A DNA stretch of 59,607 nucleotides, taken from Dehalococcoidia bacterium (lineage in GTDB: Bacteria > Chloroflexota > Dehalococcoidia > Dehalococcoidales > BS750m-G39). The DNA is taken from positions 1-59,607 of the forward strand of contig DUEC01000027.1 in assembly GCA_011176635.1 (NCBI GenBank), in the 5' to 3' direction. Shown here in pieces: positions 2,334 through 27,783 of this stretch. Below the pieces are notes generated by a model, which was not told the DNA's origin, made no database searches, and saw only the letters and a list, made by a program, of their open reading frames with translations. The position numbers were made by a program, and so were the translations under genes. Position 1 is the first letter of the stretch. Every line of letters begins with the position of its first letter.

Positions 2334-3926
<1,593 letters not shown>

Positions 3927-20567: not shown

Positions 20568-22288
20568 TGACGATAAAGATGGGAAACGGTAGAATTATTA
20601 AGTATGCCGCCAGGCTGTTGCTGGCGGTAATAATAGGGCTGTTTATGCTCGGCTCATCACCGACCCCGGTACAAGCCGCAGACCCGCCATCAATAATCCT
20701 GACCCTGGGAGGAACGGGAGCTACCCCCTGGAGCATAGATGGTATTATGCCCTGCCAGAGCGGCACCGAGACGCTCACCCTGCACAACGCCGGTAACCTG
20801 GACGGCTTTGTTATTATCTGGATAGAAAATATCGTCAGCGATGAAGGTCTAAACTCCGAACCCGAAACTAATACCGCACCCGAAGACGGCGGTGAGCTTG
20901 ATGACTACCTGCTGTTTGACCTCTCCACCAACCCCGCCGGCGCTCTAGATACCAACCTAGCTCCGCCGACGACCATTGACAACTTCCCCCAGGACGCTTT
21001 CGACCCCAACTATATCTGGATAGTCCCCTTAAACCCCGGTGATACCGTCACCCTGAATTGGCATTGGGAGCTACCCTGCGCCACCGGTAACGATGCCCAG
21101 GGAGATACCCTTTCCTTCGACATAACCTATTTCCTGGTCGACGATTTTCCTCCTCCGCCGCCTCCACCTCTATTCACCGGCGGCCCTGGTGCTGAGGAGG
21201 ATTGTTTCATGGAAATAGACATGCTGGGTGAAATAACCATCATAGAGATGGACTGTTGTCTCAACAGGTCCCTTGAAGAAGAGCTGGCCTATGACCCCGA
21301 TGACCTGCACTTCATGGAGATTCTCTATAACATGGAGATACTTTGCGGTGAGTGTGCGGGATGCTACTGCTTCCCCCGCGTAGTGGTGATGAGTCTGTCC
21401 GAGCATGGACCGCCTCCACCGGAGGATATGACAACAGTAGGCCCGATTTATGATTTTACGGGGTATGAAGACAGCGACAGGAATGACCCCTGCTCTATCG
21501 CCACCTTCTTCGACCCGTTACTGATAATACAGCTCAGCTATAACCCCGACGACCTGCCTCCTGGCGCTTCTTCACCCGTTATCGCCTTTTATGACGATGT
21601 ACAGGGCTTATGGGTTACCCTACCCCCTGCCAGCGGTATACCGGCCGAAATCGGCAGGATAACCGCAGAGACAAATTACCTCGCTTCACCGTTCGCCATA
21701 CTGGTGAACGTACCTCCCCCATCCCAACCCCCCACTCTGGCCAATTTTGTGGTCAGTGACTTGAACATCACACCCGGCGTGAGGGAAATATGGCAGCCGG
21801 TTACCTTTGTCACCAAGACGGGAGAAAGCGTCACCATCACCGCCAATGTAACTAATGACGGCGGGCAGGCGGGCACTTTTACCGTCGAGCTACAGATAAA
21901 CGGGGAGACAATAGCCACTAAAGAAGTAACGCCGGGTGCCGGTCAAAGCGAGCTGGTAAGCTTCACCCTGACCGACTTAGAATCGGGGCGTTATGGGGTA
22001 ATGCTTTCCGGCTTGAGCGGTGATTTCAGGGTGTTCCTGAGCATCAACTGGTGGCTCATAATAAGTATAATCGCTGCCCTCTTGCTGTTAGGCTGGCTGA
22101 ACTGGTATCTCTGGTATCGTAAAAAGTGGCCCCGCGTTTGGAATCGCAGAAAGTGGCCCCGCATAAATTGGGCCCGCATCTGGTCTGATACCAAGGGGGC
22201 TCCCGTTTGGAAACGTGGATACTGGGCCCGCATCTGGTCACATATTCAGTCCTTTATAAAGGGGCTGAGACCAAAGCTGGCGTCTTAA
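20567..22288 (+). CDS. Membrane-anchored protein: signal peptide, TasA-like N-terminal domain, central domain, CARDB-like domain, TM helix, and a Trp/Arg-rich repeat tail
   Basis: The ORF is 20555..22288. I prefer the ATG at 20567, which overlaps the upstream TGA (TGATG) and follows GGGGAG. Signal cleavage is predicted at ..PVQA/ADPP. The CARDB-like segment is VVSDLNITPG...VTITANVTNDGGQAGTFTVEL.ING. The TM is WWLIISIIAALLLLGWLNWYLW. Confidence 0.62.
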   Translation: MTIKMGNGRIIKYAARLLLAVIIGLFMLGSSPTPVQAADPPSIILTLGGTGATPWSIDGIMPCQSGTETLTLHNAGNLDGFVIIWIENIVSDEGLNSEPETNTAPEDGGELDDYLLFDLSTNPAGALDTNLAPPTTIDNFPQDAFDPNYIWIVPLNPGDTVTLNWHWELPCATGNDAQGDTLSFDITYFLVDDFPPPPPPPLFTGGPGAEEDCFMEIDMLGEITIIEMDCCLNRSLEEELAYDPDDLHFMEILYNMEILCGECAGCYCFPRVVVMSLSEHGPPPPEDMTTVGPIYDFTGYEDSDRNDPCSIATFFDPLLIIQLSYNPDDLPPGASSPVIAFYDDVQGLWVTLPPASGIPAEIGRITAETNYLASPFAILVNVPPPSQPPTLANFVVSDLNITPGVREIWQPVTFVTKTGESVTITANVTNDGGQAGTFTVELQINGETIATKEVTPGAGQSELVSFTLTDLESGRYGVMLSGLSGDFRVFLSINWWLIISIIAALLLLGWLNWYLWYRKKWPRVWNRRKWPRINWARIWSDTKGAPVWKRGYWARIWSHIQSFIKGLRPKLAS

Positions 22289-22387: not shown

Positions 22388-22460
22388 GGGCCGCTAGCTC
22401 AACTGGCAGAGCAGCTGACTCTTAATCAGCAGGTTGGAGGTTCGAGTCCTCCGCGGCTCA
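22388..22460 (+). tRNA. tRNA-Lys (anticodon CTT)
   Basis: A 73-nt cloverleaf read by hand. Acceptor gggccgc/gcggctc (one G-U); D-arm gctc/gagc; anticodon arm gctga-ctCTTaa-tcagc; T-arm ggagg-ttcgagt-cctcc; discriminator A. CCA is not encoded. Confidence 0.9.
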
Positions 22461-22480
22461 TTTCAAAGCTAAATCGGCTT
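22418..22480 (+). repeat. attL: 63-bp direct repeat (43 nt of the tRNA-Lys 3' part plus 20 nt downstream)
   Basis: Identical to 27590-27652 except for two positions (G/A and C/T). These two positions pair with each other in the T-stem. Confidence 0.88.
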
Positions 22481-22497
22481 TCCCTACGCCGTAAAAG

Positions 22498-23460
22498 ATG
22501 GTTTTAGACCAACTGATTCAAGGAAAAGCCCAGATAGGCCGCGTATCTGGGCTAGACCAACTGATTCGTCGCGGCAACCTCACAGCACACCTTCAAGCCT
22601 TCCTGCTATCCTGCAGGGTGGACGGGCTCTCCCCGGCATCGCTGAGGGACTATCGGCAGAAGATAGGCGCCTTCGTCATTTTCTGCGCCGGCCACAACAT
22701 CGACAAACCCAAGCGGCTGACCGTCTCCGGCATCCGCACGTTCCTGGCGAAGACGCGGGAGACCAACTCCCCGGTCTCGGTCGCCGACTACTACCGGTGC
22801 GTCAAGCGGTTCCTGAACTGGATGGTCGAGGAGCGGATGCTAAAGCGCAATCCCATGGCCGCCATCCGCCCGCCGAAGACCCCTCGGAAAGTAATCGCCC
22901 CCTTCACGACGGACCACGTCAAGCGCCTCCTCCTGCTCTGCGACGACCTGAAGTTCCTGGGCGCCAGAAACAAGGCGATAATCCTGATGTTCCTGGACAC
23001 CGGCCTCAGACTCTCCGAGCTGGCCGGCATCCAATTAAAGGACGTGGACTTTGACCGGGAGGTCATCAAAGTCATGGGCAAGGGGGCCAGGGAGCGGGTG
23101 GTCAGAATCGGTAGGGCGGCGCAGAAAGCCCTGCTGCGCTACCTTCTCATGCGGGAGGACGATTACCCCTGCCTGTGGGTCACCGAGGAGCGGAGGCCGC
23201 TCGCTCACTGGGGAATCGAGCTGATGATACGGAAGCTGGGCAGAAGAGCCGGCATCGAAGGGGTAAGGTGCTCGCCCCATACCTTCAGACACACCTTCGC
23301 CACCCGGGCGCTGCTCAACGGCGCCGGGGAGTTCGAGGTGCAGTCCCTACTGGGGCACGAGGGGCTGGATATGACTAGGCGTTACGCGGCCAGTCTGAGG
23401 AGCGAGGCGGCCGTCGAGGGGCACAAGAGATTTAGCCCGGTGGACAATATGGGAATTTAA
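22498..23460 (+). CDS. int: Tyrosine-type site-specific integrase (XerC/D-like phage integrase family)
   Basis: 320 aa. An N-terminal SAM-like domain, then catalytic-domain motifs: LDTGLRLSEL (Arg), HTFRHTFAT (His-x-x-Arg), LLGHEGLDMTRRY (His..Tyr). Confidence 0.87.
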   Translation: MVLDQLIQGKAQIGRVSGLDQLIRRGNLTAHLQAFLLSCRVDGLSPASLRDYRQKIGAFVIFCAGHNIDKPKRLTVSGIRTFLAKTRETNSPVSVADYYRCVKRFLNWMVEERMLKRNPMAAIRPPKTPRKVIAPFTTDHVKRLLLLCDDLKFLGARNKAIILMFLDTGLRLSELAGIQLKDVDFDREVIKVMGKGARERVVRIGRAAQKALLRYLLMREDDYPCLWVTEERRPLAHWGIELMIRKLGRRAGIEGVRCSPHTFRHTFATRALLNGAGEFEVQSLLGHEGLDMTRRYAASLRSEAAVEGHKRFSPVDNMGI

Positions 23461-23543
23461 GAAGTGCCATGATCTATATTTTGATACCCGTGAAGCCATG
23501 GCCCACAGCTGATAAGTTTTTGGGAATTTTCTATAAGAAGGCA

Positions 23544-23572
23544 TTGACAGTTGGCTTAAGTGGTTGTAATCT
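23544..23572 (+). promoter_or_regulatory. Putative sigma70 promoter of the cargo operon; the predicted transcript is (nearly) leaderless
   Basis: TTGACA (23544-23549), 17 nt, TAATCT (23567-23572). The ATG at 23582 is only 10 nt beyond the -10 element, and there is no SD. Confidence 0.4.
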
Positions 23573-23581
23573 TGTTGCAAA

Positions 23582-24880
23582 ATGAGTAAGTTAGATACTA
23601 TTGTCAAGACTGGGTTGTCCGATGATTTTGCTGCTTATATAGACGATTTGAAATCTGAAATCCGGGGGGCTTATCTGGAAAATGATGCTCCTTGGATTGT
23701 TTGTTTTTCCGGGGGTAAGGACAGCACGGCGCTGTTGCAGTTGGTTTTTTACGCGCTGTCAGAGCTTGACGAAAAAGAGCTGGCGAAGGAACTGCATGTG
23801 CTGTCGAACGATACGCTTGTAGAAAATCCTGCAATTAGTAAGCATGTGGATGGGCAACTAGAAAGGATCAGAGTATACGGGCAGGAAAAGCTGTACAAGC
23901 ACAACCCGGGCTTGTTCTTTGTCGAGAAGGGCAAACCTAAGATCGAGGAGAGATTTTGGGTAAATCTTATCGGTAGGGGATATCCTTCTCCTAATAGATG
24001 GTTCCGTTGGTGTACGGAAAGGCTGAAAATAAACCCGACTAGCAAATATATTGGGGATTCGCTGGAGAGGCACGAAAAGGTAATCATAGTTTTGGGGACG
24101 CGAAAAGCGGAGTCGGCAAATAGGGCTGTATCAATGAGAAATTATGCCGGTAATGGGCGTTTCCGTAATCACACATTGCCTGATGCTTTGGTGTACGCTC
24201 CGATTGCTGACGTGTCTAACGATGATGTATGGTCTTACGTTCTGCTGACCCCTAATCCGTGGGGCGGCGATAATATGGACTTGTTAGATATATATGGAAA
24301 TGCTTGTGCCGGCGGAGAGTGCCCGTTTGTGATAGAAACGGGGGTACAAAGTTGCGGCAAATCACGCTTTGGGTGTTGGGTGTGTACGGTTGTAGATAGA
24401 GATAAGTCGATGGAGAACTTCATAGTTAATGGCGAAAAATGGATGGAAGGTTTGCTTGCTTTTAGGAATTGGATTTATGAAATAAGGCAAGAAGATAGCC
24501 AGTATGTTCCTCCAAGATTGGTTGGGAAAGTTCAATTTGGACCTTTCCTGCTACGGGTAAGGGAAGAAATGCTTGAAAGGTTGCTGAAATTGCAGGATGG
24601 AGTCGGCGTAGAGTTGATCGGCGAAGAGGAACTAAATATCACGCGGAGCCTTTTGGAAGAGGATAAAAAGGCACAGTCTGCGGGTGGGATGAGAAGATAC
24701 TTCTTTGAAATGAGTAAAGGGGAGAGAATTGCTGTGGTTTCTGATTGTAATGTAGCCGAAATAAAAAGAAAAAGATTAGGCCCAATATATTTAAAGAATA
24801 TAAAATTTAAAAAATCAGAAGATGTTACAAATAAATATCTGAAATCAAAAAGGGTAATGTACTACAGGGTGAAGACATGA
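23582..24880 (+). CDS. DndC-like / PAPS-reductase-family PP-loop ATP pyrophosphatase with a Cys-rich (probable Fe-S) segment
   Basis: 432 aa. PP-loop CFSGGKDSTAL; ..RWCTERLKI..; a Cys cluster CAGGECPF...SCGKSRFGCWVCTVV, which resembles the DndC/SspD-type RFGCW.CT motif. Confidence 0.8.
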   Translation: MSKLDTIVKTGLSDDFAAYIDDLKSEIRGAYLENDAPWIVCFSGGKDSTALLQLVFYALSELDEKELAKELHVLSNDTLVENPAISKHVDGQLERIRVYGQEKLYKHNPGLFFVEKGKPKIEERFWVNLIGRGYPSPNRWFRWCTERLKINPTSKYIGDSLERHEKVIIVLGTRKAESANRAVSMRNYAGNGRFRNHTLPDALVYAPIADVSNDDVWSYVLLTPNPWGGDNMDLLDIYGNACAGGECPFVIETGVQSCGKSRFGCWVCTVVDRDKSMENFIVNGEKWMEGLLAFRNWIYEIRQEDSQYVPPRLVGKVQFGPFLLRVREEMLERLLKLQDGVGVELIGEEELNITRSLLEEDKKAQSAGGMRRYFFEMSKGERIAVVSDCNVAEIKRKRLGPIYLKNIKFKKSEDVTNKYLKSKRVMYYRVKT

Positions 24881-26499
24881 GCAAAGCCCAAGAACCGATG
24901 AATGGTGAAATTAGGGTCGCTGACGTTTCTATCGCACACCTAAGCCGTGGACTTTATAGAAGTACAGCAGCTGCATTTAAAGAACTAGTTAATAATGCTT
25001 GGGATGAAGATGCCGAAGAAGTCCGTATATATACGAATTTCCCTGAGTTTGACTCCATTTCTTGCATGGACAACGGACCTGGAATGCCTGAAGAAAAATT
25101 CAGAGACTATTTCGCAGAAAAAGGGATAGGCTATGGGGACAAGAGAATTGGCCACAGGAATGTTACTGAGAAATATGAAAGACCAATAATTGGTAGACTA
25201 GGGATTGGATTGCTTGCCATTGGGCAGCTTTGTTATAGTTTCGGAATTGAGTCTCATTATATAGGCAAGGGGGGGAAGGGGCACGCCTACAGAGCAGATA
25301 TTGACTTGCTAGACATGGATGTGCCGGATATAGATGAAAGCTTGAGTAGCGACGAGAAGGAAGAAATAAAGGTAGGAAATTGGAGGTTAACAAGGATTCC
25401 CTATGAAGAGTCAAAGCAAGGTTTTAATATATATACATCAGATACAAGAGAGACATTTAGAAAAGAGATGAAAGAGAGTATAGCTGAAGAAGACAGACAA
25501 TTAATGTCTTTTAGTCTTCCAAAGTTGTACGAGAACTTTTACGACCTGGTTGAAAGGTCTGTTCGTGAAATGGGAGCATATCTTGAGACTATTTGGGAGT
25601 TGTGCGTCTTATGTCCGATAACTTATGGCGATGATAAAAAATTTCCTTTGGACCGTAAGGCGTTTAGTAAGGAATATAAAGACGGGGAATATAGAAAAGC
25701 AATCAATTTTGTTAATAAAAAGCGGTCGGAGTTGGCAAGTTACAATTTTAAAGTCTATTTTGACGGAATAGAGCTTAAAAGGTATGTGCAGCTGCCAAAA
25801 AAGCGAGATACTGTTCCGCATCTATTTTTCATTAATTATAGTGGGGAGGTTGCAGATAGGAAGCTTAATTATTATGGCTATATATATGGACAAACAAAAG
25901 CCATAAGACCGATTGAGCTAAGCGGAATTCAAATAAGGTTAAGAAACGTAGGGATAGGTGGCTATGATGGCACCTTCCTGAAATATGATAAGAAAATAGA
26001 GACAATAAGAAACAGATGGGTATCTGGTGAGGTATTTGTTGAAGATGGCTTAGAAGTGGCTCTGAATATAGACAGGGATAGCTTCAACGAACACGATGAA
26101 CATTTCAAAAAGATACAGGAGGATTTGCACAGCAAATTAGACCAGGTTTTTAAAAAAATTGAATCAACGGCCAACGAACTACGAAAAGAGAAACATGAAA
26201 AGAAAGAGGAAGAGGTTAGGGCTGAGACATGGACAGCAATTAATCAAGGAACGCATGGTAAAGTTGATGTTGTCGAGAAGGACCTGGGAATTAACAGGCC
26301 TTTAATAGTTATTGACAAAATCAATAAACGGTTAGTGCTGAATACGGCAATTAGACCAGTGAAAAAGAAAAAAGCTGATAACTTGATTAGATACGTATCT
26401 TTAGCATATCACGTTGCGAAGTATATATCTAAGACTGAAAACGAAAGGTACGATAATTTTTATAATATTATTAGGGAAATGCTGCGAAAAATAGCATGA
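24877..26499 (+). CDS. GHKL-superfamily ATPase (MORC/Hsp90/MutL-like Bergerat fold) with an uncharacterised C-terminal half
   Basis: 540 aa. The start overlaps the upstream stop (ATGA). N-box ELVNNAWDED; G1 box CMDNGPGM; G2-like GRLGIGLLAIG. A Lys/Glu-rich predicted helix lies near residues 430-450. Confidence 0.72.
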   Translation: MSKAQEPMNGEIRVADVSIAHLSRGLYRSTAAAFKELVNNAWDEDAEEVRIYTNFPEFDSISCMDNGPGMPEEKFRDYFAEKGIGYGDKRIGHRNVTEKYERPIIGRLGIGLLAIGQLCYSFGIESHYIGKGGKGHAYRADIDLLDMDVPDIDESLSSDEKEEIKVGNWRLTRIPYEESKQGFNIYTSDTRETFRKEMKESIAEEDRQLMSFSLPKLYENFYDLVERSVREMGAYLETIWELCVLCPITYGDDKKFPLDRKAFSKEYKDGEYRKAINFVNKKRSELASYNFKVYFDGIELKRYVQLPKKRDTVPHLFFINYSGEVADRKLNYYGYIYGQTKAIRPIELSGIQIRLRNVGIGGYDGTFLKYDKKIETIRNRWVSGEVFVEDGLEVALNIDRDSFNEHDEHFKKIQEDLHSKLDQVFKKIESTANELRKEKHEKKEEEVRAETWTAINQGTHGKVDVVEKDLGINRPLIVIDKINKRLVLNTAIRPVKKKKADNLIRYVSLAYHVAKYISKTENERYDNFYNIIREMLRKIA

Positions 26500-27503
26500 A
26501 CGGGCCAGATTGGGACACAAGATATAGTAAGCACTATGTCCGCCGGGACGGCTGGTTACCAGCGAGTAAAGAATACATAAAAAAAACAGGAAAATCGGTA
26601 GTAAAGTATTTTACTCTATGTGATGTTCATGCAATAGATATATTCATGCTTGAGATGGAAGGAATTCTCCCCCGGGATGAGAATGGTAAACTACCAAATG
26701 TTATAATTTGTGAAGGATCCGTACACAAAGTTCCATTAATAAATAAGTTAGTGAAACCACCGTTAGAAGAAGCAATTATACTTGCAAACCTTGAGGATCT
26801 TATTACGTTTGAAGACGATGAATACACAAGAACTACGCCGTTGAAGACGTATGAAAGAGACAGATCAAAAAGGCAAAGGCTTAGGTTAAAAGAAAGGCAC
26901 GAGCGTTTCAAGCTGTTTCTTCCGTTTGACATTATCAATTTTGATCCGAGCAATAGTATATTAGGACAAGCGCTAGAAGTTAATAAGTTGTATAAAGCTC
27001 TTGAGAAAATATTCGAATTGCAGAAATTAACCAATTATTTCTTATTGTTCGTTACTACCAATATATCAAATCCACACGTCAGCATAGTGAGAAAATGCAT
27101 GAAGGAACTCGGCGAGAACCTGGAAAAGTATCCAAGATTGAAAGAAGCAATGACTAAGCGTTTGGGTGAAGTAGAATACAATAAGATACCTGAGCAATAT
27201 AGAATACCAATCTGCTTTGTTAAATCATTCGTGGTTGATATTGCAAGGCGGAAGGGATGGTATTGTGAACATAGAGGGGTTTTCGTGTATGAAAATCCAG
27301 ATAAAAGTAAAATGTTGGCTTCGGTTGTCTTTTGTACGCAAGTAAGAGGCGAACAAGATGAAGCAGCGTATCTTAATGATATTATCAGCGTGATTGGAGG
27401 CCAGATGAAGTATCACTCTTATGCTGATTCATTAAAGGATAAGCCCATTCAAGAGGACTTAAAAGCGATAATAAGTTACAGAGAGAAGGTGCGTAGGGGC
27501 TAG
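26496..27503 (+). CDS. Orphan hypothetical protein (335 aa), third gene of the cargo operon
   Basis: The start overlaps the upstream stop (ATGA). I recognise no motif. There is a basic patch (YERDRSKRQRLRLKERHERFK) and alternating beta/alpha-like segments (KYFTLCDVHAIDIF, FDIINFDPSNS, FLLFVTTN). Confidence 0.6.
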   Translation: MNGPDWDTRYSKHYVRRDGWLPASKEYIKKTGKSVVKYFTLCDVHAIDIFMLEMEGILPRDENGKLPNVIICEGSVHKVPLINKLVKPPLEEAIILANLEDLITFEDDEYTRTTPLKTYERDRSKRQRLRLKERHERFKLFLPFDIINFDPSNSILGQALEVNKLYKALEKIFELQKLTNYFLLFVTTNISNPHVSIVRKCMKELGENLEKYPRLKEAMTKRLGEVEYNKIPEQYRIPICFVKSFVVDIARRKGWYCEHRGVFVYENPDKSKMLASVVFCTQVRGEQDEAAYLNDIISVIGGQMKYHSYADSLKDKPIQEDLKAIISYREKVRRG

Positions 27504-27589
27504 AATAAATGTCTAGCAGTCTAGAACAGCTGAAAGCCGGGCAAAGCCTTTATTCTTAAGGGCCGGTTTTGCTGGTTTTCGCCAGCAGA

Positions 27590-27652
27590 ACTCTTAATCA
27601 GCAGGTTAGAGGTTCGAGTCCTCTGCGGCTCATTTCAAAGCTAAATCGGCTT
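27590..27652 (+). repeat. attR: second copy of the 63-bp tRNA-Lys 3' repeat
   Basis: actcttaatcagcaggttAgaggttcgagtcctcTgcggctcatttcaaagctaaatcggctt. See the attL entry. Confidence 0.88.
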
Positions 27653-27783
27653 ACCGGGTTTAAGGCCTCCCACCACACCACATTTGAAAGCAACTAGTTT
27701 TACTATTGGCCTTACTATTAATATAATAGAGTCATTGCGGTAACCAGCGGTTTTTAAGACTTTGGCAAAAGGAGTGAAAAGAA

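What the first reader, a model, noticed from the sequence alone, without database searches (positions are those of the whole stretch)
22388..27652. tRNA-Lys(CTT)-integrated ~5.2-kb islet with 63-bp att repeats that differ by a compensatory T-stem pair
The last 43 nt of the tRNA plus 20 nt downstream (22418-22480) recur at 27590-27652. The two copies differ at only two positions, G/A and C/T. Those two positions pair with each other in the T-stem (ggagg/cctcc versus agagg/cctct). Both copies therefore derive from functional tRNA-Lys 3' halves of slightly different origin. This is what is expected when an element's attP replaces the chromosomal 3' end of its target tRNA. A tyrosine integrase sits 38 nt from the tRNA. 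The element is very small: integrase plus one operon, with no excisionase or replication genes that I can see. It looks like a minimal cargo-delivery islet.
Basis: seen in the sequence. Interest (0 to 1): 0.65.

Follow-up and report, generated by a model that had tools for sequence, protein, structure and literature searches.

The report
Mini integrative islet in tRNA-Lys
A 5.2-kb mobile islet (one integrase plus three candidate DNA-modification or defence genes) has inserted into a lysine tRNA gene of an uncultured, probably Dehalococcoidales, bacterium and rebuilt the tRNA with its own slightly different 3' half; this is an ordinary kind of event, seen here with its empty site and sister elements.

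Summary
tRNA-Lys(CTT) (22388-22460) is followed by a Xer-like tyrosine integrase and a low-GC three-gene operon. The tRNA's last 43 nt plus 20 nt recur at 27590-27652 with two differences, the paired T-stem positions 49 and 65.

Related metagenome contigs show every junction expected of a mobile element at this site:
- an empty site, with the tRNA directly followed by the cupin gene;
- attL, attR and attP-type junctions of sister elements, whose integrase is 96% identical but whose larger, primase-bearing cargo is unrelated.

Integrases of this clade sit 35-46 nt behind tRNA genes in Dehalococcoidales MAGs, and also occur on viral contigs. The repeat always starts at the anticodon loop.

Two inverted copies of tRNA nt 37-48 lie inside the 5' end of each integrase gene and co-vary with the target tRNA. 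They mark the integrase half-site and place crossover in the anticodon loop. So the intact tRNA's G49:C65 half is most likely element-borne, and the A49:T65 fragment is the displaced host half.

The cargo is a conserved, uncharacterised trio: DndC-like, Hsp90-like GHKL ATPase and methyltransferase-fold protein. It probably acts in DNA modification or defence.

The islet is ordinary in kind and a new member. The site architecture and the cargo deserve testing.

The parts
22388..22460 (+). Intact tRNA-Lys(CTT). The 5' part (to about nt 31) is host sequence. The 3' part, from the anticodon loop on and carrying G49:C65, is inferred to be element-derived.
   Evidence: ARAGORN. Rfam tRNA at 67 bits. 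The same 5' half is joined to an A49:T65 3' half in the empty site L004, which is also called as tRNA-Lys.
22418..22480 (+). attL copy of the 63-nt direct repeat. It runs from tRNA nt 31 to the 3' end of the tRNA, plus 20 nt of trailer.
22461..22480 (+). Trailer TTTCAAAGCTAAATCGGCTT. The (A/T)AGCTAAA(A) motif follows the tRNA part in elements of this clade at other tRNAs and in free viral attP sites, so it is element (P' arm) sequence.
22498..23460 (+). Tyrosine integrase, 320 aa, of the 'simple' Xer-like type. It has a core-binding domain (aa 32-113) and a catalytic domain (aa 137-300), and no arm-binding domain.
   Evidence: Pfam PF00589 at 1.5e-33, and NCBIfam XerC/XerA-like hits below their cutoffs. 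PDB sequence hits to XerA, XerD, Brujita gp33 and IntI4. R171, K195, H261, R264, H287 and Y296 are invariant in 20 homologues. dN/dS is 0.11 against the sister integrase.
22505..22519 (+). Accessory site 1 (TAGACCAACTGATTC). It is an inverted copy of tRNA nt 37-48 (9 of 12 matches), and I infer that the integrase binds it.
22527..22553 (.). Inverted repeat (hairpin) GCCCAGATA-ggccgcg-TATCTGGGC between the two accessory sites. Relatives conserve it with compensatory changes. Its role is unknown.
22553..22567 (+). Accessory site 2, identical to site 1 and 48 nt downstream of it.
23582..24880 (+). Cargo gene 1: DndC-family PP-loop ATP pyrophosphatase / sulfurtransferase-like protein, 432 aa.
   Evidence: TIGR03183 at 378 bits (cutoff 290), PADLOC DndC at 1.6e-117, Pfam PAPS_reduct.
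24877..26499 (+). Cargo gene 2: GHKL ATPase, 540 aa, with an Hsp90-like N-terminal plus middle-domain fold and a long C-terminal helix.
   Evidence: Pfam HATPase_c_3. The N-terminal 150 aa resemble BbrUII/HgiDII restriction enzymes. AlphaFold2 pLDDT 80; best Foldseek match is Hsp90/TRAP1 at 1e-11.
26496..27503 (+). Cargo gene 3: PP_RS20740-family protein, 335 aa, with a divergent class I methyltransferase-like Rossmann fold.
   Evidence: Precomputed Pfam PF28273. NCBIfam NF047698 gives a weak hit. AlphaFold2 pLDDT 94; all top Foldseek hits are SAM-dependent methyltransferases, but the matches are weak (E 6e-4, TM 0.3-0.45).
27559..27589 (+). Element right arm (P arm). It is the only right-end sequence shared with the sister elements. 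It holds GCCGGTTTTG (27562-27571) and GCTGGTTTTC (27571-27580), the latter ending 9 nt before the core. A GGTTTT-type motif stands at the same distance in clade members that target other tRNAs.
27590..27652 (+). attR copy of the repeat: the displaced tRNA 3' half (A49:T65) plus trailer. It is not a tRNA gene.

Best explanation
The segment 22481-27589, plus one copy of the 63-nt repeat, is a 5172-bp integrative islet in tRNA-Lys(CTT) of a probably Dehalococcoidales host.

Mechanism (inferred). An arm-less, Xer-like tyrosine integrase recombines the element's attP with the tRNA gene, and strand exchange takes place in the 7-nt anticodon loop. The element carries a replacement for everything 3' of that point. 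After integration the expressed tRNA is therefore host 5' part plus element 3' part (G49:C65), and the original host 3' part (A49:T65) is left as a dead fragment at the far end. Both halves have been selected as working tRNA, which explains why their only two differences are a compensatory base pair.

Origin. The integrase-attP module is about 1.2 kb: a 31-nt P arm, the core, the trailer and int, whose first 70 nt contain two accessory integrase sites. The same module occurs in larger replicative sister elements at the same site. In this copy everything between the int stop codon and the P arm has been replaced by a foreign, low-GC three-gene operon (DndC-like, GHKL ATPase and methyltransferase-fold protein). 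That operon most likely acts in DNA modification or anti-phage defence.
For: Shown directly:
- The repeat, the tRNA, the integrase and the GC break are as described.
- Empty site: in L004 the two window flanks (93-94% identical) are contiguous across one core.
- Sister elements at the same site give attL (L005), attR (L010, L011) and attP-type junctions (L006, L008) in several samples.
- Homology between the window and the sisters covers only the core, the trailer and int on the left (window 22418-23459, ending at the int stop codon) and window 27559-27589 on the right.
- The integrase is 96% identical in protein to the sister integrase, with dN/dS 0.11. There is no substitution in the first 84 nt of the ORF, against 7% divergence over the whole gene.
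- The identical islet is present in a second metagenome at 99.98% identity.

Family behaviour:
- In 79 genome loci, mostly Dehalococcoidales or Chloroflexota, the integrase gene usually lies directly 3' of a tRNA gene on the same strand.
- Two integrases 75-76% identical to the window's head islets of 4815 bp (tRNA-Lys-TTT) and 4581 bp (tRNA-Ala-GGC). Each has a 44-nt repeat running from tRNA nt 31 to the tRNA end, a high-GC int and low-GC defence-like cargo.
- Free attP sites on IMG/VR viral contigs start their tRNA identity at nt 31/32.

Crossover position:
- Two inverted copies of tRNA nt 37-48 sit at fixed offsets inside the 5' end of int and co-vary with the target tRNA. Summed matches average 18.7 of 24 for an integrase paired with its own tRNA, against 14.9 +/- 2.1 for cross pairs, and 0 of 2000 permutations reach the observed value.
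- This places the integrase half-site against the anticodon loop.

Cargo:
- The trio recurs in unrelated contexts and in several phyla.
Against: - No attP circle or restored attB of this particular (DndC-cargo) islet was seen. The metagenome collection searched did not return even the window's own contig, so this absence is weak evidence.
- No excisionase is present. That may not matter for an arm-less integrase, but it leaves excision unproven.
- Which T-stem allele came from the element rests on the inferred crossover position. Sister attP sites carry A49:T65, the allele of the window's attR, so the opposite assignment needs the same number of changes.
- The window's attR has a 'TC' (27646-27647) that the L004 empty site lacks, so the window's host must differ from L004 at that point.
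- The window's accessory sites match the core at only 9 of 12 positions.
- The cargo's function rests on homology and predicted fold alone. PADLOC has no model for the third gene.
Confidence: 0.85

Rival explanations
1. Same islet, opposite allele assignment. G49:C65 is the native tRNA of the window's host strain, and the A49:T65 copy at attR came in with the element, because crossover lies 3' of the T-arm (between nt 66 and the 'TC' at 22474).
For: Sister attP sites (L006, L008) carry A49:T65, identical to the window's attR. The sister data only bound the crossover to the 56 nt between nt 31 and the TC indel.
Against: - The only unoccupied host site seen (L004) carries A49:T65.
- In five different target tRNAs, identity between element and tRNA starts at nt 31/32. 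In L016 and L017 it stops at the tRNA end. That is the part an element must carry only if exchange happens at the left end.
- The co-varying accessory sites copy nt 37-48, so the half-site abuts the anticodon loop.
- From established knowledge: anticodon-loop crossover is one of the known sublocation classes for tRNA-targeting integrases (Williams 2002, cited from memory). Islands regenerate the target gene and leave a displaced fragment (Islander abstract).
Confidence: 0.17
2. The DndC-type islet never moved as a 5.2-kb circle. A resident sister element had its interior replaced in place, by recombination at the int end and at a GCYGGT microhomology in the P arm, and the copy is now effectively a fixed remnant.
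For: - The homology breakpoints lie exactly at the int stop codon and at a GGC(C/T)GGT microhomology, shared with the cargo's other context, L098.
- No junction of this cargo type other than the integrated form was found.
- The trio occurs elsewhere without int or tRNA.
Against: - The integrase is under strong purifying selection (dN/dS 0.11), and its arms are identical to those of sisters that show attP junctions.
- Two other islets of the same clade have the same mini-format at other tRNAs, which argues that int plus small cargo is a transmissible format.
- In-place replacement would not by itself explain the G49:C65 pair, but this scenario is compatible with the main model for every later step.
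Confidence: 0.3
3. The two tRNA-complementary 15-mers and the hairpin in the int 5' region act at the RNA level rather than as integrase-binding DNA. In a tRNA-int co-transcript they would pair with tRNA nt 37-48 to control int translation or tRNA processing.
For: The RNA fold of 22414-22580 pairs nt 37-48 with site 2, with MFE -57.1 kcal/mol and z = -3.4. int is 37 nt downstream of the tRNA on the same strand. The intervening hairpin shows compensatory changes in relatives.
Against: - Across 24 distinct tRNA-site pairs, only 5 of 54 non-Watson-Crick positions are G.U. That is no wobble enrichment.
- Mismatches pile up at fixed positions (nt 44, 38, 43), as expected for a protein-recognition pattern.
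- Both sites compete for the same tRNA segment, which in mature tRNA is buried in the fold.
Confidence: 0.15
4. There is no mobile element: the second copy is the remnant of a local tRNA-Lys gene duplication.
For: The fragment keeps a paired T-stem, as a decaying duplicate might for a while.
Against: - No 5' half exists at 27560-27589, and neither ARAGORN nor Rfam calls a second tRNA.
- An integrase abuts the tRNA.
- Empty-site, attL, attR and attP junctions exist in relatives.
- There is a GC break of about 14 points.
Confidence: 0.01

Closest known systems
tRNA/tmRNA-gene genomic islands and prophages inserted by tyrosine integrases (Islander-type islands; anticodon-loop sublocation class of Williams 2002, cited from memory)
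   Same: An intact regenerated tRNA at one end, a displaced 3' fragment as a direct repeat at the other, and the integrase gene next to the tRNA and co-oriented with it. The composition is foreign, and relatives have an empty site.
   Different: - It is very small (5.2 kb).
- The integrase is a simple Xer-like enzyme without an arm-binding domain.
- The repeat runs 20 nt past the tRNA, because the host site already carries element-type trailer.
Tycheposons of Prochlorococcus (Hackl et al.; bioRxiv 10.1101/2020.12.28.424599)
   Same: [quoted passage not shown] They are modular, with one integration module shared between cargo-carrying and replicative or satellite-like versions. Integrases cluster by target tRNA.
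   Different: - The host phylum and the integrase lineage differ. No phylogeny was made here.
- This copy lacks all hallmark replication genes.
- The cargo is defence-like, not nutrient-related.
- Target-matched accessory sites inside int did not appear in the parts of that paper I read.
Arm-less 'simple' phage integrases, e.g. mycobacteriophage Brujita gp33 (Lunt & Hatfull 2016, as cited in PMC8138268; details from memory)
   Same: The protein has only core-binding and catalytic domains. Sequence similarity to gp33 (PDB 5vfz) is detectable at E 1e-11. No excisionase gene is present. From memory, Brujita attP has extra integrase sites beside the core.
   Different: - XerA and XerD match far better than gp33 does.
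- Here two extra sites lie inside the integrase's own coding start and track the target tRNA across the clade.
- Directionality has not been tested.
Integron integrase attI sites with accessory direct repeats DR1/DR2 (from memory)
   Same: A simple tyrosine recombinase uses additional core-type binding sites next to the crossover site. The best NCBIfam hits include XerA/integron-integrase models.
   Different: There are no attC-type folded substrates and no cassette array, and the target is a tRNA gene.
Dnd DNA phosphorothioation system (DndABCDE, with or without DndFGH)
   Same: Cargo gene 1 passes the curated DndC model (TIGR03183, 378 bits against a cutoff of 290).
   Different: The islet has no DndD/DndE core, no DndA or DndB, and no DndFGH. 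Instead the DndC-like gene is fixed next to a GHKL ATPase and a methyltransferase-fold protein, across phyla.
Phage satellites and P4-like or PICI-type islands that carry defence genes (from memory)
   Same: They are small tRNA-adjacent integrase elements with swappable defence cargo. The sister elements carry a primase-helicase-like gene and Cro/CI-type regulators.
   Different: No packaging, capsid-redirecting or helper-interaction gene was identified, and the window copy has no replication gene.

Membership tests
tRNA-integrated genomic island (Islander-type) | Intact target tRNA gene at one end | tested here: met
   ARAGORN and Rfam call tRNA-Lys(CTT) at 22388-22460.
tRNA-integrated genomic island (Islander-type) | Displaced 3' tRNA fragment as a direct repeat at the other end, and not a second gene | tested here: met
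   63-nt repeat with 2 mismatches. No tRNA is called at 27560-27655.
tRNA-integrated genomic island (Islander-type) | Tyrosine integrase gene inside the island next to the tRNA | tested here: met
   PF00589 at 1.5e-33, 37 nt from the tRNA. The RKHRHY residues are invariant.
tRNA-integrated genomic island (Islander-type) | Unoccupied site in related genomes | tested here: met
   L004: tRNA-Lys is followed directly by the cupin flank, and both flanks are 93-94% identical to the window.
tRNA-integrated genomic island (Islander-type) | Excision and integration activity of this copy | not testable with these tools
   Only sister elements show attP-type junctions (L006, L008). Testing this copy needs reads, PCR or biochemistry.
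Simple (Xer-like) tyrosine recombinases (Smyshlyaev 2021) | Core-binding and catalytic domains only, with no N-terminal arm-binding domain | tested here: met
   SAM-like domain at aa 32-113 and catalytic domain at aa 137-300 of 320 aa. Best PDB sequence hits are XerA and XerD.
Tycheposons | Integrase belongs to the tycheposon-specific tyrosine-recombinase lineage | not tested
   No tree with Prochlorococcus integrases was built. The nearest relatives found are from Dehalococcoidales/Chloroflexota MAGs and viral contigs.
Tycheposons | Shared hallmark mobility and replication genes | tested here: not met
   The window islet has int only. Sisters have a DUF3854/DUF927 primase-like gene, but homology to tycheposon profiles was not tested.
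Tycheposons | [quoted passage not shown] | tested here: met
Dnd phosphorothioation system | DndC sulfurtransferase | tested here: met
   TIGR03183 at 378 bits, above the 290 cutoff.
Dnd phosphorothioation system | DndD (ABC/SMC ATPase) and DndE core | tested here: not met
   Neither of the two other cargo proteins hits any DndD, DndE, SspB or SspC model in PADLOC, Pfam or NCBIfam. The rest of the genome was not examined.
Dnd phosphorothioation system | Phosphorothioate in DNA | not testable with these tools
   Needs LC-MS/MS or iodine cleavage of DNA from an expressing host.
Phage satellite (PICI / P4-like) | Replication module and genes that exploit helper capsids | tested here: not met
   None is present in the window islet. 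The sisters have a primase-like gene, but no packaging gene was identified in the parts held.

The most novel reading that the evidence does not exclude
Two linked readings remain open.

(a) This Dehalococcoidales/viral clade of arm-less integrases uses an attP in which two extra copies of the target half-site (tRNA nt 37-48, inverted) are written into the first 70 nt of the integrase's own coding sequence. These copies change whenever the clade switches tRNA target. That would be a readable specificity code, serving intasome assembly or autoregulation, which could explain how a 1.2-kb int-attP module retargets and picks up arbitrary cargo.

(b) The DndC-like / Hsp90-like GHKL / methyltransferase-fold trio is a previously undescribed DNA-modification-based defence system that works without DndD/E.
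Probability: 0.35. Interest if true: 0.65.

Novelty: new member of a known kind. Interest (0 to 1): 0.45.

Why it matters
As an island it is textbook, but it is a well-resolved natural example. All four att junctions, an empty site, a cargo swap with mapped breakpoints, and a compensatory tRNA base pair that records two separate functional histories are all recovered from metagenomes of uncultured Dehalococcoidales-like bacteria.

It shows that a 1.2-kb integrase-attP module is enough to carry either a replicon or a small defence-like operon into a tRNA gene in this group.

If the co-varying accessory sites are integrase-binding sites, the clade offers a set of small tRNA-specific integrases, perhaps independent of an excisionase, whose specificity can be read from their own genes. 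That would be useful for annotation and possibly for engineering.

The cargo trio is widespread and has no PADLOC model for its third gene. It is a concrete candidate for a new defence or modification system.

Tried and rejected
- **Logan contig break-points.** L003 starts exactly at the repeat boundary (27590), while L002 and L014 start near the variable loop. I considered these as evidence for co-existing attB and attP. I rejected them as proof, because with k=31 such breaks can come from other tRNA genes or strains in the sample. L003 is kept only as a hint.
- **Viral contigs.** A scan for the att core DNA pattern gave 0 hits.
- **Exact-protein look-up of the left-flank CARDB gene**, to find an empty site in the window's own strain, returned only the two occupied contigs.
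- **Trio linked to this integrase elsewhere.** I looked at contigs L098, L100-L103 and L184-L188 and found no int, tRNA or T-loop fragment. The many 4-6-kb contigs that hold the trio are therefore not islets of this type.
- **P arm.** I looked for core-like half-site copies there and found none above background. A register comparison of the P arm with site 1 was uninformative apart from the shared GGTTTT motif.
- **Cargo.** PADLOC and PDB sequence searches for cargo genes 2 and 3 gave no system-level assignment. The Dnd reappraisal paper (PMC10853773) does not mention GHKL partners of DndC. The only paper naming PP_RS20740 concerns furfural tolerance and says nothing about function.
- **Brujita integrase paper.** It could not be retrieved, so comparisons with it are from memory.
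- **Host taxon.** It is inferred from the integrase's relatives.

Full report
**1. The observation**

ARAGORN finds a single tRNA in the 59.6-kb window, tRNA-Lys(CTT) at 22388-22460. Rfam agrees at 67 bits, and it finds nothing tRNA-like at the second repeat copy even at E<=1.

The direct repeat is real. 22418-22480 recurs at 27590-27652, 63 nt with two mismatches, and weaker identity continues to 22483/27655. The mismatches are G/A at 22436/27608 and C/T at 22452/27624. These are tRNA positions 49 and 65, which pair to close the T-stem, so G:C in the intact gene corresponds to A:T in the fragment. By my estimate two random substitutions would do this about once in a thousand.

The repeat begins at tRNA nt 31, one base before the anticodon loop. 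Between the repeats lie four ORFs:
- an integrase gene, 22498-23460, starting 37 nt after the tRNA;
- three co-directional ORFs with overlapping stop and start codons: 23582-24880, 24877-26499 and 26496-27503.

GC content is 53-55% in the flanks, 61% in int and 40% in the cargo.

**2. Is it an inserted element? Evidence from related sequences**

I scanned JGI metagenome contigs with a 47-nt core pattern that allowed either allele at the two variable positions. It returned eight loci, which together show all four junction types.
- **Empty site.** L004 (a 408-kb contig) has the same tRNA 5' half, a 3' half with A49:T65, and then directly the cupin-gene flank. Both flanks are 93-94% identical to the window and are contiguous across one core.
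- **attL.** L005 has the tRNA followed by the integrase side.
- **attR.** L010 and L011 have an element right end followed by the cupin flank.
- **attP type.** L006 and L008 have an element right end, the core, then the integrase. This indicates circular or tandem forms.
- L007 and L009 show an element right end plus core and stop there.

The same islet as in the window, 99.98% identical over 17.9 kb and with the same two att alleles, is present in a second metagenome, JGI 3300008516.

**3. Sister elements and the cargo swap**

The elements in L005-L011 are not the window's islet. Their integrase is 92-93% identical in DNA and 96% in protein. Homology to the window stops at the int stop codon (23459) on one side and begins only 31 nt before the core (27559) on the other.

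Their interior holds a Cro/CI-type HTH gene next to the right end, many small ORFs, and an 813-aa DUF3854/DUF927 protein that matches a phage DNA primase family. They are larger replicative elements.

The window's cargo has its own relative. L098 is 80% identical over window 24593-27567 and has no att core after it. So the cargo-type and arm-type homologies overlap at a GGC(C/T)GGT microhomology around 27559-27567.

The integrase is under purifying selection: 68 nucleotide but only 14 amino-acid differences from the sister, dN/dS 0.11. The first 84 nt of its ORF show no difference, against 7% over the whole gene.

I conclude that a roughly 1.2-kb int-attP module is the conserved unit and that the interior was replaced by a foreign low-GC operon.

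**4. The integrase family**

The protein has a SAM-like core-binding domain (aa 32-113) and a catalytic domain (aa 137-300), and nothing that could be an arm-binding domain. R171, K195, H261, R264, H287 and Y296 are invariant in 20 homologues. Its best matches among solved structures are XerA, XerD, Brujita gp33 and IntI4. It is therefore a 'simple' tyrosine recombinase in the sense of Smyshlyaev et al. In their survey only 27 phages carried simple tyrosine recombinases, against 410 carrying enzymes with an arm-binding domain.

More than 2000 homologues exist. A genome scan places the nearest ones almost entirely in Dehalococcoidales, Dehalococcoidia and other Chloroflexota MAGs, which is my basis for the host assignment. 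In most loci int lies directly behind a tRNA gene on the same strand. The targets include Lys-CTT, Lys-TTT, Ala-GGC, Met-CAT, Pro-GGG, Gly-TCC, Arg, Leu and Gln, and the gap is 35-46 nt in most of the closest relatives.

Two integrases 75-76% identical to the window's head islets of the same format:
- L016/L019: tRNA-Lys(TTT), 4815 bp. Cargo is a PD-Lambda-5_A/PDC-M38A-like protein, an unknown protein and a C5 DNA methylase.
- L017: tRNA-Ala(GGC), 4581 bp. Cargo is a PAPS-reductase-NifU fusion and a 631-aa protein with a weak HATPase_c match.

Each has a 44-nt repeat from nt 31 to the tRNA end, int at 59-60% GC and cargo at 44%. Relatives 48-62% identical lie on 14-44-kb IMG/VR contigs with phage-type replication genes.

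**5. attP architecture and where crossover occurs**

Free attP sites on viral contigs, and the right ends of integrated elements, share one layout:
- a GGTTTT-type motif (GCYGGTTTTC in the close relatives, looser on the viral contigs) ending 9 nt before tRNA nt 31;
- tRNA sequence from nt 31/32 to the 3' end;
- a trailer with (A/T)AGCTAAA(A);
- ATGGTTTTA, the start of int.

This explains the 20 extra repeat nucleotides in the window. They are element-type trailer. The host sites in L004 and in the L016 attR already carry a version of it, which I read as a scar of earlier occupancy (inference).

Inside the first 70 nt of int there are two identical 15-mers 48 nt apart, at 22505-22519 and 22553-22567. 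They are the only two matches in the window, and 0 of 100 shuffles gave two. Read on the other strand they copy tRNA nt 37-48: the end of the anticodon loop, the 3' strand of the anticodon stem and the variable loop.

The same arrangement, with different sequence, is found in most clade members examined and follows the target tRNA. For example L024 and L025 match at 12/12 and 10/12, and the Ala, Gly and Met elements at 9-11/12. Over 18 loci the summed match averages 18.7 of 24 for an integrase paired with its own tRNA, against 14.9 +/- 2.1 for other tRNA types, and 0 of 2000 permutations reach the observed value.

The encoded peptide changes with the sites (LDQLI, LEHMI, LNHLT), so the constraint is not at the protein level.

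An RNA-pairing explanation is possible, since the predicted fold pairs nt 37-48 with site 2 at z = -3.4. The mismatch pattern argues against it. Only 5 of 54 non-Watson-Crick positions are G.U, and mismatches concentrate at fixed positions.

My reading (inference, about 0.6): these are accessory core-type integrase sites, used for complex assembly or for autoregulation. They identify nt 37-48 as the integrase half-site. In the tRNA gene the mirror half-site is the 5' strand of the anticodon stem. The exchanged overlap is therefore the 7-nt anticodon loop, which fits the left boundary of identity at nt 31/32 in five different targets.

**6. Which T-stem allele belongs to whom**

With crossover in the anticodon loop, everything 3' of it in attL comes from attP, and everything 3' of it in attR comes from attB. 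The intact tRNA's G49:C65 half is then the element's, and the A49:T65 fragment is the host's original half. That matches the allele in the empty site L004.

The opposite assignment costs the same number of changes, because sister attP sites carry A49:T65. I give it about 0.17. The sister junctions exclude crossover to the right of the TC indel (22474-22475), because attL carries the attP state there and attR carries the attB state.

**7. The cargo**

- **Gene 1** passes the curated DndC model (378 bits against a cutoff of 290) and has the PP-loop SGGKDS motif and a cysteine cluster.
- **Gene 2** is a GHKL ATPase. Its AlphaFold2 model (pLDDT 80) matches the Hsp90/TRAP1 N-terminal and middle domains (1e-11). 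It has a long C-terminal helix and no recognisable nuclease domain.
- **Gene 3** belongs to the PP_RS20740 family. Its model is confident (pLDDT 94), and the only fold neighbours are class I SAM methyltransferases, at weak scores.

The trio recurs with the same order and overlaps in unrelated contexts. Its homologues come from WOR-3, Zixibacteria, Hadesarchaea, Leptospiraceae and Sphingobacteriales records. One locus has only the GHKL-PP_RS20740 pair.

It is not a Dnd system, because no DndD/E partner is present. PADLOC has no model for gene 3.

My best guess (about 0.4) is a DNA-modification-based defence or self-marking module. In it the GHKL ATPase would take the DNA-handling role that DndD has in Dnd systems. 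This is inference from homology and from the defence-like cargo of the sibling islets.

**8. Comparison, novelty and verdict**

In kind this is a classical tRNA-gene island. In organisation it most resembles tycheposons, which also have Xer-like tRNA-specific integrases and modular cargo or replicative versions, and arm-less integrase systems such as Brujita. It fails the replication-hallmark feature of tycheposons and the DndD/E feature of Dnd systems, so I file it under neither.

It is a new, well-documented member of a known kind. The less ordinary parts are the target-matched sites inside the integrase gene and the uncharacterised cargo trio. Both are supported at the sequence level, and neither has been tested functionally.

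Confidence that this is an integrase-borne inserted islet is 0.85. Interest is 0.45.

Noticed in passing
window 22505-22567 and the matching int 5' regions in L017, L019, L021, L024, L025, L036-L043, L107 and L111: Two inverted copies of the target tRNA's nt 37-48 lie at fixed offsets inside the first ~70 nt of the integrase ORF and co-vary with the tRNA targeted. Summed matches average 18.7 of 24 for own pairs against 14.9 for cross pairs, and 0 of 2000 permutations reach this. Mismatches are not wobble-biased.
   Followed up: yes
window 22527-22553; same position in L008, L019, L017, L021, L104, L107 and L109: A 9-bp-stem inverted repeat sits between the two accessory sites and is kept by compensatory changes (GATA/TATC versus GGCA/TGCC). 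In L017 the loop is the reverse complement of the window's. Its role is unknown: a protein-binding palindrome or an RNA hairpin.
   Followed up: partly
window 27562-27580; L008 around 3237-3255; right ends of L016 and L017; L104, L110 and L112 attP: A conserved GGTTTT-type motif (GCYGGTTTTC in the close relatives, two tandem copies in the window) ends 9 nt before tRNA nt 31, whichever tRNA is targeted. ATGGTTTTA at the int start is similar. A second loose motif (CAAGGCT / CAAAGCC) lies about 40 nt upstream of the core.
   Followed up: partly
L004 (empty site) and L016 attR versus window 22461-22480: Host sites carry the element-type trailer (CAAAGCTAAA...) after the tRNA, which suggests scars of earlier integrations. 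The window's attR has a TC (27646-27647) that the L004 empty site lacks.
   Followed up: partly
L016/L019 10001-14734 and L017 10001-14545: These are sibling mini-islets at tRNA-Lys(TTT) and tRNA-Ala(GGC) with high-GC int and low-GC cargo. One carries a PD-Lambda-5_A/PDC-M38A-like protein plus a C5 methylase. The other carries a PAPS-reductase-NifU fusion plus a protein with a weak HATPase_c match. So a PP-loop enzyme next to a possible GHKL-type ATPase recurs in a second form.
   Followed up: partly
L008 4766-4974: An 82-nt AT-rich, internally palindromic tandem repeat (2.5 copies, 100% identical) lies downstream of int and a Zn-ribbon gene in the sister element. It could be an iteron or origin.
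   Followed up: no
window 22110-22233: A 55-nt direct repeat (73% identical) lies inside the 3' end of the 577-aa CARDB surface-protein gene, just upstream of the tRNA. It encodes W/R/K-rich repeats.
   Followed up: no
L003 (SRR3085416) and L002, L014 (SRR3085435): Short Logan contigs carrying the window's cupin or integrase break inside the att repeat. L003 starts exactly at the repeat's first base. This is compatible with an attB or attL branch in that sample but is not proof.
   Followed up: partly
L098 1-2975: The cargo operon (80% nt identical, 41% GC) also occurs in another contig whose distal flank (BcrAD/HGD-D genes) is 78% identical to the window's. There it lies about 5 kb further from those genes and has no att core after it.
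   Followed up: partly
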